64,000 bases of DNA from Candidatus Nealsonbacteria bacterium (GTDB lineage Bacteria; Patescibacteriota; Minisyncoccia; Minisyncoccales; JANBVM01). Where the stretch lies: assembly GCA_047456295.1 (NCBI GenBank), contig CP179887.1, forward strand, positions 367,159 through 431,158, written 5' to 3'. Position numbers and translations under genes: made by a program. This document shows positions 15,401-64,000 of this stretch, piece by piece (position 1 is the first letter of the stretch; each line of letters opens with the position of its first letter). Below the pieces are notes generated by a model. It was not told where the DNA came from, searched no databases, and saw only the letters and a program-made list of their open reading frames with translations.

Positions 15401-15484
15401 GCCGGAGTGCTGAAATTGGAAAACAGGGTGGATTCAAAATCCACTGTCCGTAAGGACTTGAGGGTTCAAGTCCCTCCTCCGGCA
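15401..15484 (+). tRNA. tRNA-Leu (anticodon CAA), class II with long variable arm
   Basis: Acceptor GCCGGAG/CTCCGGC, anticodon arm GTGGA-TTCAAAA-TCCAC, long variable arm, T arm GAGGG-TTCAAGT-CCCTC, discriminator A; CCA not encoded. Confidence 0.9.
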
Positions 15485-45266: not shown

Positions 45267-45338
45267 TGCCCCCAGAAGGATTTGAACCTTCCCCGACATC
45301 TTAGTAGGATGTAGCTCTGTCCAATAAGCTATGGGGGC
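45267..45338 (-). tRNA. tRNA with anticodon ACU; class I cloverleaf with Arg-like features
   Basis: Acceptor GCCCCCA/TGGGGGC, D arm GCTT-ATTGGACA-GAGC, anticodon arm ACATC-CTACTAA-GATGT, 4-nt variable region, T arm GAAGG-TTCAAAT-CCTTC, discriminator A. Folded by hand. Confidence 0.8.
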
Positions 45339-50837: not shown

Positions 50838-51176
50838 GGGGGTGACATGTTTCGACAGAAATTTAACCAAGAAAGGCAGGTGGAGTATTCTCAAATCTCC
50901 TAAAACTTTGAGAAAAAAATAAGTGCCAACTTATTTCAAAAACCTGCATTAGCTTACGTCTAATGCCATCTGCCTTATTGATTCTCGATAAGTAAGGTCA
51001 GGTGTCATATATCGAGATAGATAGTTTTTAAAGACCTAGAAAAGCTATTGAAAAAACAGGTCAAAAGCAGAGAAATTTTGTCCAATTTAAATTTTCTGTT
51101 ATTCTTTAATTGGAATAAACTTGTAGAACTGCCTTGGTGATAATTTTTGGACGCGAGTTCATCCTCGCCACCTCCA
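50838..51176 (+). ncRNA. ssrA: tmRNA (SsrA)
   Basis: 5' GGGGGTGACATGTTTCGACAG pairs with 3' CACCTCC, giving a G3:U wobble. T arm GCGAG-TTCATCC-CTCGC. PK1 is formed by GGAG/CTCC plus TCTCAAA/TTTGAGA. The tag frame is GCC AAC TTA TTT CAA AAA CCT GCA TTA GCT TAC GTC TAA (50925-50963), preceded by AAAAAAATAAGT, like E. coli AAAAAUAGUC. Confidence 0.85.
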
Positions 51177-51183
51177 CAAAACC

Positions 51184-61173: not shown

Positions 61174-62076
61174 TTATTCCCGATAGAGTCTTTTTAGACC
61201 AGCTATTTTGACTAGTTCAACTGCTCTCTGGAATTCTTCCCTTGTAATTCTCCTCGAGAACTCGGGAAACTGAAAAGCCTTATGGTAAGGATAATATTGA
61301 TCCATAATATTCAAAAAAGTATTCGGGGAAATCTCTTTTGACAAGAATTCAAAAGTCTTTTCAGAGCCTGCCAAATTATTCGGCAAAACCAAATGTCTCA
61401 CCAATAAACCCTGTCTGGCTATCCCCTCTTTGTCTAAAACCAGATCTCCCACCTGCCGGTGCATCTCTTTAATGGCTTTTTTCATAATCTCAAAATAATG
61501 GGGGGCTTTTGAATATTTCAAAGCAACCTTATTGTTAGAGTATTTTGTATCTGGCAGATAAATATCAATAATTCCATCTAAAAACCGTAAGGTCTCAACT
61601 GAATCGTAAGAACTGGTATTATAAATCAAGGGAATGTTGAGACCAGACTCAATTGCTATTACAAGTGATTTCAAAATCTGGGGAACATGGCAGGTAGGAG
61701 TGACCAGATTAATGTTATGACAAAGGCGATCCTGAAGTTCTAACATCATTTTTGCCAATCTCTCAAAAGAAATCTCTTTTCCAATCCGTAATTGAGAAAT
61801 TTCATAATTTTGACAATAAACACACGACAGATTACAGGATGTAAAAAAAATGGTTCCTGAACCAAACCTTCCCACCAGAGGGGCTTCTTCTCCAAAATGG
61901 GGGTGGAAAGCAGAAACAATGGGTAGAAAACCTAATTGACAATATCCCTTTTCTCCTTTTATTCTGTTCACATGGCATTTTCTCGGACAAATCTCACAAT
62001 CTTCTAAAAGCTTAAAGAGTTTTTCTATCCTTTGTTTTAAATCCTTTTTAGATAAATTTAAGTAGCTCGGGTACAT
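61174..62076 (-). CDS. PflX-type (COG1313-like) radical SAM protein
   Basis: N-terminal CEICPRKCHVNR...GYCQ cluster, radical SAM CNLSCVYCQN, and the LVTPTCHVPQI...YNTSSYDS...DIYLPDTKY pattern typical of PflX homologs of PFL-activating enzymes. Confidence 0.75.
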   Translation of the reverse strand: MYPSYLNLSKKDLKQRIEKLFKLLEDCEICPRKCHVNRIKGEKGYCQLGFLPIVSAFHPHFGEEAPLVGRFGSGTIFFTSCNLSCVYCQNYEISQLRIGKEISFERLAKMMLELQDRLCHNINLVTPTCHVPQILKSLVIAIESGLNIPLIYNTSSYDSVETLRFLDGIIDIYLPDTKYSNNKVALKYSKAPHYFEIMKKAIKEMHRQVGDLVLDKEGIARQGLLVRHLVLPNNLAGSEKTFEFLSKEISPNTFLNIMDQYYPYHKAFQFPEFSRRITREEFQRAVELVKIAGLKRLYRE

Positions 62077-62135: not shown

Positions 62136-62498
62136 TTAACAGGTCAGGTGAAATAAACCTATTACCTTCTCTTGTTTTCCTTCTTCTCTTTGTGATTCTG
62201 CCAGGATAATATTAAAGGTCTTAACTGATTGTTCGGTCTTATCAATAATTAATTTAATACCTTTCTGTTCAATAGAATCCTGACATCTTTGAGTAACCCT
62301 GGCCATGCCTGCTTGTCCAGTACCAATAATAATTGTATCTGGATTCTGTCCTACCGCTCTTTCTGTATCTGCTGTATCTATTGTATGGCTCTTTACCCTC
62401 CACCACTTCAGAACCTCGCCTGACCAATAAACCTCCACATCTTGATGATAAGTTTTCTTATCAATGGTTATTGAGCCAAATTTATATTCCTCAATCAT
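62136..62498 (-). CDS. Mth938-like (DUF498) domain protein
   Basis: FGSITIDKKTYHQDV..., IIIGTGQAGM..., C-terminal FHLTC match my recollection of the MTH938 family. ATGA overlap with the upstream activase stop. Confidence 0.7.
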   Translation of the reverse strand: MIEEYKFGSITIDKKTYHQDVEVYWSGEVLKWWRVKSHTIDTADTERAVGQNPDTIIIGTGQAGMARVTQRCQDSIEQKGIKLIIDKTEQSVKTFNIILAESQREEGKQEKVIGLFHLTC

Positions 62499-64000
62499 AT
62501 CTCATTTGAATCTGTTATATTCAATCCCGACCACTTACCACACCTGTCTCCCCAGCGAGCAACAACCTTTCCATCTATTCTTGCCTCTATTACCTCACAT
62601 TGGTTGGGACATCCCTTACAGTGAAAAGAGGTACATTTAATGTCTTTATCTGAAATTCCAAAACCTAAAAATTTAGTTTTTTGAGGCGGGTTTTCTTTTA
62701 TTAAAACAGCTGCCCCAAACGCTCCCAATATCGTATTATATTTAGGCACAATGATTTTTTGTTTTAAGGCATCTTCAAAAGCCTTTTTCATTCCCACATT
62801 TTCAGAAACGCCTCCTAGAAAAACAATTGGTTTCTGAATATTCTTGCCTTTGGCCACATTGGCTAAGAAATTTCTAGCCAGACCCTGACAGAGACCAGCT
62901 ACAATATCTTCTATTTTGTGACCTATCTGTTGTTTGTGAATCATATCTGATTCGCAAAACACCGTGCATCTACTTCCAATATTGGTCGGGTTTTTTGAGA
63001 TTAAAGCCAACTCTCCAAATTTTTCAATCGGAATCTTTAAACGAAAAGCCTGAGCATCAAGAAAAGAACCTGTACCTGCAGCGCAATTGTGAACCGTTAA
63101 GGTGTTAGCTATATAGGAATTATCACCCTTAACCTCGAGGTTATAAACTTTACCTTTAAATCTATATTTTCTAATTTTTCTAATCGGTTCAAAAAGCCAC
63201 TTTGAATAAATAAAAGATTTGTCGCTTCTCTTTTTTAAACTAATTATGTGTTTATCTTCCAGATTATTGATTTTCTCTCCAAATATTTCAAGAAAATAAA
63301 CGTATTTTCCTCCCTTGGTCTTATTAGAAGATTTATTTATCGTACATTTAATTTTATTTCTCAGTAAGAGCCAGTATAACTGGTGAGCTAAATCTTCGGA
63401 AACAGTAGAGGCACAATACCTGTTCCCTTTTTTATTTGGACCTGAAACATCTTTTGGTCTCTGGCGTAGATGTCCATCTCCCCTGAAAAATCCTTTCAAA
63501 ATTTGTTTTTGTAAAGATGGCTCTAAATTTAACAACTCAGTACTCAATCTCTTTTTATCTGCCATTGAACCACAGAGATATTTCATATACTCCGATAAAG
63601 TTTTACTATAGATACCAACTGTAAGAGTTTTATGTTCAGGAATTTTATTAACTGTAATATTAAGATTTTCGAAATTTTGGGAGACAATATTTTTAATATC
63701 TTCCACATAGTTTTGTTCATTAATATTGAACACAAAACTTATCCCACAAGGATATTTTACTTTTTTATCCCACCGAGCTTTGTTGTACAAAATACAGCCT
63801 TCAGCTAAATAATAACCCAATAACCTAAGCGAGTCTGGCGTAAAGATAAATTTATCTATTTCTTTAAATGGTTTAAATATTTTAGGTTCTGTTTTAACTA
63901 CCGAATAATCTATGGAAGGCGGGTCATCTATTTCATTTTCTAAAGATAAAGGTGTGGCAATAAAATCTCCTTTCTTAAGTTCTTTTACTGGAATAAATCT
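62495..64000 (-). CDS. BcrAD/BadFG/HgdC-type ATPase (CoA-substrate-specific enzyme activase-like), intein-containing; 5' end outside window
   Basis: C-extein CAAGTGSFLD...IGSRCTVFCESD...FLGGVSENVGMKKAF...GAFGAAVL aligns with HgdC-like activators and is followed by a Cys-rich tail (CTSFHCKGCPNQC...CGKW). The frame stays open from 63820 to the window edge (no stop in 63821-64000; the M at 63820 is a TTG Leu codon). Confidence 0.75.
   Translation of the reverse strand, partial: RFIPVKELKKGDFIATPLSLENEIDDPPSIDYSVVKTEPKIFKPFKEIDKFIFTPDSLRLLGYYLAEGCILYNKARWDKKVKYPCGISFVFNINEQNYVEDIKNIVSQNFENLNITVNKIPEHKTLTVGIYSKTLSEYMKYLCGSMADKKRLSTELLNLEPSLQKQILKGFFRGDGHLRQRPKDVSGPNKKGNRYCASTVSEDLAHQLYWLLLRNKIKCTINKSSNKTKGGKYVYFLEIFGEKINNLEDKHIISLKKRSDKSFIYSKWLFEPIRKIRKYRFKGKVYNLEVKGDNSYIANTLTVHNCAAGTGSFLDAQAFRLKIPIEKFGELALISKNPTNIGSRCTVFCESDMIHKQQIGHKIEDIVAGLCQGLARNFLANVAKGKNIQKPIVFLGGVSENVGMKKAFEDALKQKIIVPKYNTILGAFGAAVLIKENPPQKTKFLGFGISDKDIKCTSFHCKGCPNQCEVIEARIDGKVVARWGDRCGKWSGLNITDSNEI
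63086..64000 (-). mobile_element. Intein with LAGLIDADG endonuclease domain in the activase gene (N-terminal part beyond window edge)
   Basis: LAGLIDADG motifs LLGYYLAEGC and LKGFFRGDGH. C-terminal splice junction ...YIANTLTVHN|CAAGTG, with the Asn codon at 63086-63088 and the +1 Cys at 63083-63085. Confidence 0.85.

What the first reader, a model, noticed from the sequence alone, without database searches (positions are those of the whole stretch)
63083..64000. LAGLIDADG intein inserted immediately before the predicted [4Fe-4S]-ligand cysteine of an HgdC/BcrAD-type activase
The open frame runs to the window edge and contains an intein with LAGLIDADG blocks LLGYYLAEGC and LKGFFRGDGH. It ends ...TLTVHN, and the +1 nucleophile is the Cys of CAAGTGSFLD. 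In the archetypal activator HgdC of Acidaminococcus fermentans the homologous sequence is, as I recall it, NDKCAAGTGRFL. There this Cys, together with the Cys of SSTCTVFAESE (here IGSRCTVFCESD), ligates the inter-subunit [4Fe-4S] cluster; I recall these as Cys127 and Cys166. The splice-junction nucleophile would therefore be the cluster ligand itself, and the enzyme could not assemble its cluster until splicing has occurred. I do not recall inteins being described in this ATPase family.
Basis: partly seen in the sequence, partly recalled or inferred. Interest (0 to 1): 0.58.

Follow-up and report, generated by a model that had tools for sequence, protein, structure and literature searches.

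The report
Intein at an iron-sulfur ligand cysteine
A self-splicing, mobile protein insert (an intein) interrupts an ATP-driven electron-transfer enzyme of an ultra-small bacterium exactly at one of the two cysteines that hold its iron-sulfur cluster. This is a real, apparently unpublished insertion site, but it works like an ordinary intein.

Summary
Window 62495-64000 (-) is one open frame running off the window edge. It contains the last 305 codons of a LAGLIDADG intein (63086-64000), ending TLTVHN, then Cys+1 (63083-63085) and a 196-aa C-extein.

The C-extein is an HgdC/BcrAD-type activase ("archerase"). Cys+1 aligns with Cys127 of HgdC and with C115 of DCCP-R. The Cys of SRCTVF aligns with HgdC Cys166 and DCCP-R C152. 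C115 and C152 are published ligands of the subunit-bridging [4Fe-4S] cluster.

About 50 Patescibacterial homologues carry the same insertion, with invariant Cys1, terminal Asn and Cys+1. A 98.7%-identical intein-free allele begins matching the window exactly at the Cys+1 codon. Endonuclease-less mini-inteins occupy the same site. Intein and extein similarities disagree strongly. Together these indicate a mobile, probably splicing-competent intein.

Related inteins also sit before the second ligand cysteine of the same enzyme, and before the third cluster-type cysteine of its DUF2229/HGD-D partner, sometimes in the same operon.

No paper in the searchable library describes inteins in this family.

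Not shown: the N-terminal junction of this copy, splicing itself, and any regulatory role.

Verdict: new member of a known kind; moderate interest.

The parts
63086..64000 (-). C-terminal 305 codons of a ~417-aa class-1 LAGLIDADG intein (site 'a'); about 112 N-terminal residues lie outside the window
   Evidence: Translation; Pfam LAGLIDADG_3 and Intein_splicing; 66-73% identity to full-length inteins in P0001-P0027; alignment A1
63794..63823 (-). LAGLIDADG motif 1 (block C), LLGYYLAEGC, with the catalytic-type Glu
   Evidence: G174 Y175 Y176 L177 E179 G180 are invariant in A1
63470..63499 (-). LAGLIDADG motif 2 (block E), LKGFFRGDGH, with the catalytic-type Asp
   Evidence: F284 G286 D287 G288 are invariant in A1
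63086..63148 (-). Intein blocks F and G, VYNLEVKGDNSYIANTLTVHN, ending in penultimate His and terminal Asn
   Evidence: terminal Asn is invariant in 54 site-a inteins
63083..63085 (-). Cys+1 codon (TGC): the C-terminal splice nucleophile and first [4Fe-4S] ligand position (HgdC Cys127 / DCCP-R C115)
   Evidence: DNA identity to intein-free L001 starts here
62495..63085 (-). C-extein: 196 aa plus stop codon; C-terminal half of the archerase ATPase plus a C-terminal Cys-rich domain
   Evidence: BcrAD_BadFG 1.6e-21; phmmer to 4eht_A 4.8e-23, 9gai_D 6.1e-23, 1hux_A 6.3e-17; 98% identical to intein-free P0055
62966..62968 (-). Second [4Fe-4S] ligand position (Cys of SRCTVF; HgdC Cys166 / DCCP-R C152). 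In other genomes this Cys is the +1 residue of a different intein (site 'b')
   Evidence: site-b junction ...SSR|CLTEDN...CHN|CTIFAESD in P0070, P0078, P0094, P0111, P0121
62531..62635 (-). C-terminal five-Cys motif CTSFHCKGCPNQC...x18...C, absent from the solved archerases
   Evidence: C281, C286, C289, C293 and C312 are invariant in A2 and (apart from C281) A3; modelled as a three-strand domain not covered by PDB archerase matches; shared with ~1400-aa fusion proteins
62136..62498 (-). Downstream DUF498 gene; its ATG overlaps the activase stop in an ATGA overlap, consistent with co-expression
   Evidence: same arrangement in L001

Best explanation
This is a canonical (class 1) mobile intein with an intact-looking LAGLIDADG homing endonuclease. 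It is inserted in the gene for the ATP-dependent electron-activating subunit ('archerase': HgdC/HadI/BcrAD/DCCP-R family, TIGR00241) of a Patescibacterial three-gene system: DUF2229 alpha, DUF2229/HGD-D beta, and the activase. The insertion lies between Ile-1 and the cysteine corresponding to HgdC Cys127 / DCCP-R C115.

After translation the intein should excise itself by the standard four steps. Cys1 forms a thioester, which is transferred to the thiol of Cys+1. The terminal Asn then cyclises, and an S-to-N shift restores ...DFAMNLI-CAAGTG.... Only then is that thiol positioned, together with the SRCTVF cysteine and the same two residues of a second subunit, to bind the bridging [4Fe-4S] cluster.

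The position is best explained by selfish-element logic. An intein needs a Cys/Ser/Thr at +1, and its endonuclease needs an invariant DNA target. The invariant ligand cysteine in the CAAGTG motif provides both.

Shown: intein anatomy, exact boundaries, ligand homology, presence/absence polymorphism and mobility. Inferred: splicing competence of this copy, inability of the precursor to bind the cluster, and endonuclease activity.
For: Intein and junction. Ligand homology: one search aligns Cys+1 to 1hux_A 127, 4eht_A 125, 9gai_D 127 and 7yyl_E 115, and the second Cys to 1hux 166 and 7yyl_E 152. PMC9351452 names C115 and C152 as the [4Fe4S] ligands. Host family: TIGR00241 at 209 bits; AF2 model of the intein-free orthologue P0055 with pLDDT 91.3; Foldseek TM 0.84-0.92 to MbdQ, HadI, HgdC and DCCP-R. 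Intact junctions elsewhere: all 54 site-a inteins have Cys1, terminal Asn and Cys+1. Block B TPEHP and both LAGLIDADG acidic residues are conserved. Precise empty site: intein-free contig L001 is 98.7% identical in DNA, starting exactly at the junction. Life-cycle stages: 140-184-aa mini-inteins without an endonuclease occupy the same site. Mobility: exteins 95% identical with inteins 61% identical (P0029 vs P0036), and inteins 68.5% identical with exteins 48% identical (P0051 vs P0054). The intein has 30.4% GC against 38.2% for the C-extein. Operon: alpha and beta genes lie directly upstream in L001-L007, L082 and L083.
Against: The N-terminal 112 intein residues and the N-extein of this copy are outside the window. 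Exact-match scans for the source contig found nothing, so Cys1 and block B are unverified here. The closest intein-bearing relative is only about 72% identical across the intein. Roughly 40% of site-a homologues lack the penultimate His (KN, GN, AN, SN, RN), so splicing efficiency may vary across the family, although this copy has HN. No experiment shows splicing, endonuclease cleavage or cluster binding. The function of the host system is unknown.
Confidence: 0.85

Rival explanations
1. The intein has been co-opted as a conditional switch. The splice nucleophile is itself an iron ligand, and Cys1 sits next to it in the precursor. Iron, an Fe-S cluster, zinc or oxidation (a Cys1-Cys+1 disulfide) could therefore reversibly block splicing. 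Production of the oxygen-sensitive archerase would then be tied to redox or iron status.
For: The nucleophile is the ligand. Three related inteins sit at Fe-S-type cysteines in one system, sometimes two per operon. Precedents exist for stress-responsive splicing in mycobacterial DnaB (PMC6195587 abstract) and SufB (title of Topilina et al. 2015, as listed in the references of PMC4760082). The intein carries a conserved four-Cys insert.
Against: Near-identical genomes lack the intein entirely. The endonuclease is conserved and the intein and extein histories disagree. Endonuclease-less and empty stages coexist. All of this is the pattern of a selfish element, not of a fixed regulator. There are no experimental data.
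Confidence: 0.12
2. This particular copy is a dead intein or a pseudogene. The gene is broken upstream of the window, or the intein no longer splices, so the activase is not made.
For: The N-terminal junction is not visible and could not be retrieved. The penultimate His is degenerate in many relatives.
Against: The frame has 501 stop-free codons (P about 5e-14). HN, Cys+1, block F and both LAGLIDADG motifs match the family consensus. The C-extein is 98% identical to intact intein-free orthologues. The ATGA-coupled downstream gene is intact.
Confidence: 0.08
3. The +1 cysteine is not a cluster ligand in this subfamily. For example, the extra C-terminal five-Cys domain might bind the metal instead, so the position would have no special meaning.
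For: The five-Cys C-terminal domain is absent from solved archerases and its role is unknown.
Against: Both canonical cysteines are invariant or nearly so across the family (C170 invariant and C131 at 90% or more in A3). They align without gaps to the ligands in four solved archerases. The model superposes on those structures at TM 0.84-0.92.
Confidence: 0.03
4. The feature is an assembly chimera or a chance open frame.
For: None found.
Against: The same insertion with the same boundaries is found in dozens of independent assemblies from JGI, ENA, NCBI and Logan.
Confidence: 0.01

Closest known systems
Archerases: HgdC (1HUX), HadI (4EHT/4EHU), BCR MbdQ/MbdP (9GAI), DCCP-R (7YYL)
   Same: The host protein shares the ASKHA ATPase fold, the CAAGTG and (S/T)xCTVFAES motifs holding the two cluster-ligand cysteines, and an adjacent HAD/BCR/DCCP-like partner.
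   Different: None of the characterised members is reported to carry an intein. The Patescibacterial protein has an extra C-terminal five-Cys domain. Its partners are two small DUF2229 proteins. Its nearest relatives are the second ATPase domain of uncharacterised ~1400-aa fusion proteins.
SufB (Pps1) inteins, e.g. Mycobacterium tuberculosis SufB intein
   Same: Both are class-1 inteins with Cys1/Cys+1 and a LAGLIDADG endonuclease in an Fe-S-related protein (PMC8891592). SufB inteins in many GTDB genomes are the commonest distant relatives (27-32% identity) of this intein.
   Different: The host and insertion site differ. In SufB the +1 Cys belongs to a cluster-assembly scaffold; from memory it corresponds to E. 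coli SufB C254, which I did not test. Here it is a permanent ligand of a catalytic electron-transfer cluster.
Inteins in conserved ATPase motifs (DnaB, RecA, RadA, MCM; census of Novikova et al., PMC4760082)
   Same: The general rule applies here too: inteins sit at the most conserved, functionally critical residues of conserved proteins, and several sites can occur in one protein.
   Different: That census emphasises replisome and P-loop proteins, and its main text does not mention CoA, dehydratase or Fe-S hosts. Here the host is an ASKHA ATPase and the site is the metal-binding residue, not the nucleotide pocket.
Sister inteins found here: archerase site b, DUF2229/HGD-D beta-subunit site, IscU/NifU_N site
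   Same: They share the same intein clade (34-42% identity to the window intein), the Cys1...HN|Cys architecture, and a position before an Fe-S-type cysteine.
   Different: The insertion points differ...SSR|C-TIFAES...LLPFG|C-MPE and ...GNPV|C-GD. Site b is rare, with about six protein clusters.

Membership tests
Class-1 intein with LAGLIDADG homing endonuclease | In-frame insertion whose exact removal restores the orthologous intein-free protein | tested here: met
   Intein-free P0055/L001 reads ...DFAMNLI-CAAGTGSFLD. DNA identity of 98.7% to the window begins at the Cys+1 codon. MAFFT places the whole insert as one gap between I130 and C131.
Class-1 intein with LAGLIDADG homing endonuclease | Block G: terminal Asn (usually preceded by His) followed by a Cys/Ser/Thr +1 nucleophile | tested here: met
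   Window reads ...TLTVHN|C. Asn and Cys+1 are invariant in 54 homologues.
Class-1 intein with LAGLIDADG homing endonuclease | Block A nucleophile (Cys1/Ser1) and block B TxxH at the N-terminal splice site | not testable with these tools
   These lie beyond base 64000, and the source contig was not found. In homologues Cys1 is invariant and TPEHP is conserved.
Class-1 intein with LAGLIDADG homing endonuclease | Two LAGLIDADG motifs, each with a catalytic acidic residue | tested here: met
   LLGYYLAEG and LKGFFRGDG are present. Pfam LAGLIDADG_3 scores 33.7 bits against a cut-off of 22.5. E179 and D287 are invariant.
Class-1 intein with LAGLIDADG homing endonuclease | Match to the Pfam Intein_splicing model above its gathering score | tested here: inconclusive
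   The window fragment scores 29.7 bits against a cut-off of 35.8 because it is truncated. The full-length homologue P0008 scores 48.8 bits.
Class-1 intein with LAGLIDADG homing endonuclease | Autocatalytic protein splicing and site-specific DNA cleavage (homing) | not testable with these tools
   The evidence is indirect only: empty, full and mini-intein alleles and intein/extein discordance.
HgdC/HadI/BcrAD/DCCP-R archerase (PF01869, TIGR00241) | Family HMM match above the curated cut-off | tested here: met
   For the window C-extein, PF01869 scores 77.5 bits against a cut-off of 31.5. For the orthologue P0055, TIGR00241 scores 209 bits against 125.
HgdC/HadI/BcrAD/DCCP-R archerase (PF01869, TIGR00241) | ASKHA ATPase fold | tested here: met
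   The AF2 model of P0055 (98% identical C-extein) has pLDDT 91.3. Foldseek gives E 1e-26 to 3e-19 and TM 0.84-0.92 to 9gai_D, 4ehu_B, 1hux_A and 7yyl_E.
HgdC/HadI/BcrAD/DCCP-R archerase (PF01869, TIGR00241) | Two conserved cysteines per subunit that ligate the subunit-bridging [4Fe-4S] cluster | tested here: met
   Both cysteines are present and aligned to 1hux 127/166 and 7yyl_E 115/152. The ligand role of C115 and C152 is stated in PMC9351452. Actual cluster binding was not tested.
HgdC/HadI/BcrAD/DCCP-R archerase (PF01869, TIGR00241) | Encoded next to a HAD/BCR/DCCP-type Fe-S acceptor protein | tested here: inconclusive
   The upstream region is outside the window. In L001-L007, L082 and L083 two DUF2229 genes lie directly upstream, one with an HGD-D C-terminus.
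SufB (Pps1) intein allele | Insertion in SufB at ...VEG|C-TAP | tested here: not met
   The host here is an archerase. SufB inteins are only 27-32% identical.
Bacterial intein-like (BIL) / other HINT domains | HINT domain in variable proteins, without a conserved +1 nucleophile, homing endonuclease or empty-site orthologues (definition from my own knowledge) | tested here: not met
   Here there are canonical HN|C, an endonuclease, a conserved host and precise empty-site alleles.

The most novel reading that the evidence does not exclude
One clade of LAGLIDADG inteins in Patescibacteria (and Dehalococcoidia) has colonised every class of Fe-S-ligand cysteine in a two-component archerase/HAD-like system: both bridging-cluster ligands of the ATPase and the third ligand-type cysteine of the acceptor subunit. 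It has also colonised IscU and SufB. Because the same thiol must act first as splice nucleophile and then as iron ligand, cluster or metal loading and splicing are mutually exclusive. Maturation of the complex, which needs up to two splicing events per operon, would then be gated by iron or redox status. That would be a natural Fe-S-responsive conditional-splicing system.
Probability: 0.12. Interest if true: 0.75.

Novelty: new member of a known kind. Interest (0 to 1): 0.5.

Why it matters
This adds a new host family, an ASKHA-fold electron-activating ATPase, and three new insertion sites to the intein repertoire. The splice nucleophile is a structurally assigned [4Fe-4S] ligand, so the enzyme's cofactor site does not exist until splicing is finished.

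That makes it a clean natural system for asking whether metal or cluster binding competes with protein splicing. It also bears on the open question of whether inteins at cofactor sites are purely selfish or are used as post-translational switches.

There is a practical point as well. Patescibacterial activase and DUF2229 genes that look twice their normal size in metagenome annotations are intein-bearing, not fusions. The spliced sequence should be used for metabolic inference.

Tried and rejected
(1) Retrieving the source contig to see the N-terminal junction. A 50-nt exact match from window 63951-64000 found nothing in genome contigs or metagenome contigs. The best protein relative in 5.8 billion sequences is only 77% identical.

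(2) Literature confirmation of 'Cys127/Cys166' by residue name. There were no relevant hits, so I used the DCCP-R structure paper for the homologous C115 and C152.

(3) A first AlphaFold run on an alignment of intein-free sequences that were all about 80% identical gave an unusable model (pLDDT 50). Adding diverged, intein-bearing homologues raised pLDDT to 91.

(4) A search for other copies of this intein clade elsewhere in the window found only the one locus.

(5) The BCR structure paper gave no ligand numbering for MbdQ. The supplement of the intein census is not held, and the SufB-sensor PNAS paper is not held.

(6) Considered and rejected: a BIL/HINT domain, an assembly chimera, a gene fusion, and the possibility that the +1 Cys is not a ligand (see the rival explanations).
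Full report
**Observation**

The feature is on the minus strand. Translating window:62495-64000:- gives 501 sense codons and a stop, and the frame is open to the window edge. In this 34% GC sequence the chance of such a stop-free run is about 5e-14.

- LLGYYLAEGC at 63794-63823
- LKGFFRGDGH at 63470-63499
- ...TLTVHN, with the Asn codon at 63086-63088
- CAAGTGSFLD, with the Cys codon at 63083-63085 (the finding's start coordinate)
- IGSRCTVFCESD, with the Cys codon at 62966-62968

Pfam finds BcrAD_BadFG (1.6e-21) on residues 304-433 and LAGLIDADG_3 (4.5e-8), both above their cut-offs. It also gives a sub-threshold Intein_splicing match of 29.7 bits against a cut-off of 35.8. That shortfall is expected, because only the C-terminal three-quarters of the intein is inside the window.

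**What the host protein is**

The 196-aa C-extein matches solved archerases by sequence: HadI 4eht_A (4.8e-23), MbdQ 9gai_D (6.1e-23), HgdC 1hux_A (6.3e-17) and DCCP-R 7yyl_E (2.3e-9). The intein-free orthologue P0055, whose C-extein is 98% identical, exceeds the curated cut-off of TIGR00241, 'acyl-CoA dehydratase activase' (209 bits against 125).

An AlphaFold model of P0055 reached pLDDT 91.3 once diverged homologues were added to the alignment. A first attempt with a shallow alignment had failed. Foldseek places the model on MbdQ, HadI, HgdC and DCCP-R with target-normalised TM 0.84-0.92 over about 262 columns.

The last ~60 residues form an extra three-strand domain with five invariant cysteines. 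This domain is missing from the solved archerases. An exhaustive HMMER search shows that the nearest non-Patescibacterial relatives (45-49% identity) are the second ATPase domain, plus this Cys-rich segment, of uncharacterised ~1400-aa proteins.

**Ligand assignment**

In the ungapped phmmer alignments:

| Window residue | HgdC (1hux_A) | HadI (4eht_A) | MbdQ (9gai_D) | DCCP-R (7yyl_E) |
|---|---|---|---|---|
| Cys+1 | 127 | 125 | 127 | 115 |
| Cys of SRCTVF | 166 | not read off | not read off | 152 |

[quoted passage not shown] In the model, C170 (P0055 numbering) immediately precedes helix 171-183, and C131 lies in the loop after strand 121-127.

The ligand role of those two HgdC residues rests on my own knowledge of the 1HUX paper and on the homologous DCCP-R statement.

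**Is it a real, complete intein elsewhere?**

A search of 5.8 billion proteins returned dozens of ~740-aa homologues with the same architecture. Some are labelled Candidatus Paceibacterales or Nealsonbacteria. Several JGI entries are auto-named 'activator of 2-hydroxyglutaryl-CoA dehydratase/intein/homing endonuclease'.

An alignment with the intein-free P0055 puts the entire insert in one gap between Ile130 and Cys131. All 54 inserts begin with Cys, end with Asn and are followed by Cys. Block B (TPEHP), both LAGLIDADG acidic residues (E179, D287) and block F are conserved.

The full intein is ~417 aa, so about 112 intein residues and about 130 N-extein residues of this copy lie beyond base 64000. 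The penultimate residue is His in this copy but K, G, A, S or R in roughly 40% of relatives.

**Mobility**

- The intein-free contig L001 (JGI Ga0311295_1365782) is 98.7% identical in DNA to the window, and the match begins exactly at the junction.
- Of the nine C-extein differences, two are synonymous changes in codons +2 and +3, right at the insertion point. This suggests a co-conversion tract or a target-site variant, but the numbers are small.
- Mini-inteins of 140-184 aa that keep the splicing blocks but lack the endonuclease occupy the same site in other genomes.
- Intein and extein similarities are discordant. P0029 and P0036 have 95% identical exteins but 61% identical inteins. P0051 and P0054 have 68.5% identical inteins but 48% identical exteins.
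- The intein is more AT-rich (30.4% GC) than the C-extein (38.2%).

Together these show the classic invasion, fixation, degeneration and loss cycle of a homing intein.

**Context**

In the intein-free relative and in six GTDB Patescibacteria species representatives that carry the intein, the activase is preceded by two DUF2229 genes: alpha (~300-360 aa) and beta (~357 aa, with an HGD-D-type C-terminus). These in turn are preceded by a TIGR00375/MJ0043_C PHP-domain gene.

Beta has only three extein cysteines (PEMxC, GGSC, FGCMPE). The third aligns with the Cys of HadC 'MKFCDPE' (3o3m_B) and of DCCP 'LQFCQP' (7yyl_C). It therefore sits in the conserved Cys motifs that the family review assigns to cluster binding (PMC7317905). 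That it is actually a ligand in this protein is inferred.

In the window the activase stop overlaps the start of a DUF498 gene in an ATGA overlap. The alpha and beta genes would lie beyond the window edge.

**Beyond the finding**

The same protein family has a second, rarer intein site. In P0070, P0078, P0094, P0111 and P0121, site a is empty, and a related LAGLIDADG intein (34-42% identical) is inserted as ...SSR|CLTEDN...CHN|CTIFAESD. That is immediately before the second cluster ligand, HgdC Cys166.

A third related intein interrupts the beta partner at ...LLPFG|C...HN|CMPE, in P0133, L082, L083, L004, L008 and Dehalococcoidia L009/L010. In L082 and L083 both the beta gene and the activase gene of a single operon carry inteins.

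More distant relatives (27-32% identity) are mostly SufB inteins (...VEG|C...HN|CTAP). Others sit in NifU_N/IscU (GNPV|C...HN|CGD), in a WCPG|C...CG context that looks like 2-oxoacid:ferredoxin oxidoreductase beta, and in PHP/TIGR00375 proteins.

The 'nucleophile = cluster ligand' situation is therefore a recurring habit of this intein clade, not a one-off.

**Mechanism and rivals**

The best-supported reading (confidence 0.85) is a selfish, splicing-competent class-1 intein. Its site reflects two needs: a +1 thiol, and an invariant DNA target for the endonuclease.

It is an inference that the precursor cannot bind the bridging cluster. The argument is that a ~48-kDa domain is inserted at the dimer-interface ligand, and that the thiol is consumed transiently as the branched-intermediate thioester.

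A regulatory, conditional-splicing role (0.12) is attractive because stress-sensing inteins have been reported in mycobacterial DnaB and SufB. The presence/absence polymorphism between near-identical genomes argues against a fixed function. A dead copy (0.08) cannot be excluded without the upstream sequence. A non-ligand Cys (0.03) and an artefact (0.01) are essentially excluded.

**Novelty**

No paper in the 8-million-paper library combines intein with 2-hydroxyglutaryl-CoA dehydratase or with benzoyl-CoA reductase (0 hits each). Papers combining intein with activase concern mainly ribonucleotide reductase, and none concerns this family. A search combining inteins with CPR or Patescibacteria found nothing relevant. 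The main text of the 2015 intein census does not mention such hosts, and its supplement is not held. InBase could not be queried.

The sequences themselves are public and partly auto-annotated. I classify this as a new member (a new insertion allele and host family) of a known kind, with moderate interest (0.5). The mechanism is canonical. What is unusual is that three sister sites all fall at Fe-S cysteines of one system, which offers a direct way to test metal-gated splicing.

Noticed in passing
Proteins P0070, P0078, P0094, P0111, P0121 (loci L083-L085); homologous to window 62966-62968: A second, rarer intein site exists in the same activase family. A related LAGLIDADG intein is inserted immediately before the other [4Fe-4S] ligand cysteine (...SSR|CLTEDN...CHN|CTIFAESD), while site a is empty in these proteins.
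   Followed up: partly
L082 4794-7004; L083 2756-4951; P0133; also L004, L008 (=P0065), L009/L010 (Dehalococcoidia): The DUF2229/HGD-D beta partner gene, directly upstream of the activase, carries a third related intein before its third extein cysteine (...LLPFG|C...HN|CMPE). That Cys aligns with a Cys in HadC and DCCP. In L082 and L083 two adjacent genes of one operon each carry an intein.
   Followed up: partly
P0126, P0130 (NifU_N/IscU); L011-L070 (SufB); L041/L044 (WCPG|C...CG context); L027/L029/L058 (PAH|C...CWTPW, PHP/TIGR00375-like): Distant relatives of this intein (25-32% identity) sit before conserved cysteines of other Fe-S-related proteins, including the first cluster-ligand-type Cys of IscU (GNPV|C-GD) and SufB (VEG|C-TAP). 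The host assignments for L041/L044 and for the PHP proteins were made by eye only.
   Followed up: no
Intein alignment A1 columns ~78-112 (outside the window in this copy); also in the site-b intein: A conserved four-cysteine insert (IKCYQ...ICKP...C-x3-C) lies between block B and the endonuclease domain. It is lost in the mini-inteins. It may be a zinc-binding or DNA-recognition module.
   Followed up: no
window 62531-62635 (-): The activase has a C-terminal five-Cys segment (C-x4-C-x2-C-x3-C-x18-C), modelled as a small three-strand domain that is absent from solved archerases. It is shared with the second ATPase domain of ~1400-aa uncharacterised fusion proteins. It may bind a metal or a cluster.
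   Followed up: partly
window 63077-63082 (-) versus L001 6278-6283: Two of the nine DNA differences between the intein-bearing and intein-free alleles are synonymous changes in codons +2 and +3, next to the insertion point (GCT GCA versus GCC GCT). This could be a co-conversion tract or an endonuclease target-site variant.
   Followed up: partly
window 62318-62406 (-) versus L001 ~6952: An 89-bp segment inside the DUF498 gene is present in the window, where the ORF is an intact 120 aa, but absent from the otherwise 97-99% identical contig L001, where the gene is cut to 46 aa. This is a deletion or an assembly error in L001.
   Followed up: no
window 61174-62076 (-): A radical-SAM protein (Pfam Radical_SAM 3.8e-10; weak NrdG2 and AmmeMemoRadiSam-like NCBIfam hits) lies two genes downstream of the activase. 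Any link to the system is unknown.
   Followed up: no
window 50838-51179 (+); 45267-45338 (-); 15401-15484 (+): One tmRNA gene (134 bits) and two tRNA genes are the only Rfam gathering-level hits in the window.
   Followed up: no
L082 824-2232; L083 2315-2707 and 4959-5363: In relatives, other mobile or accessory genes sit at the same operon. A bAvd plus reverse-transcriptase pair (resembling a diversity-generating retroelement) lies upstream in L082. Small PDDEXK_3 genes are wedged between the operon genes in L083 and L084.
   Followed up: no
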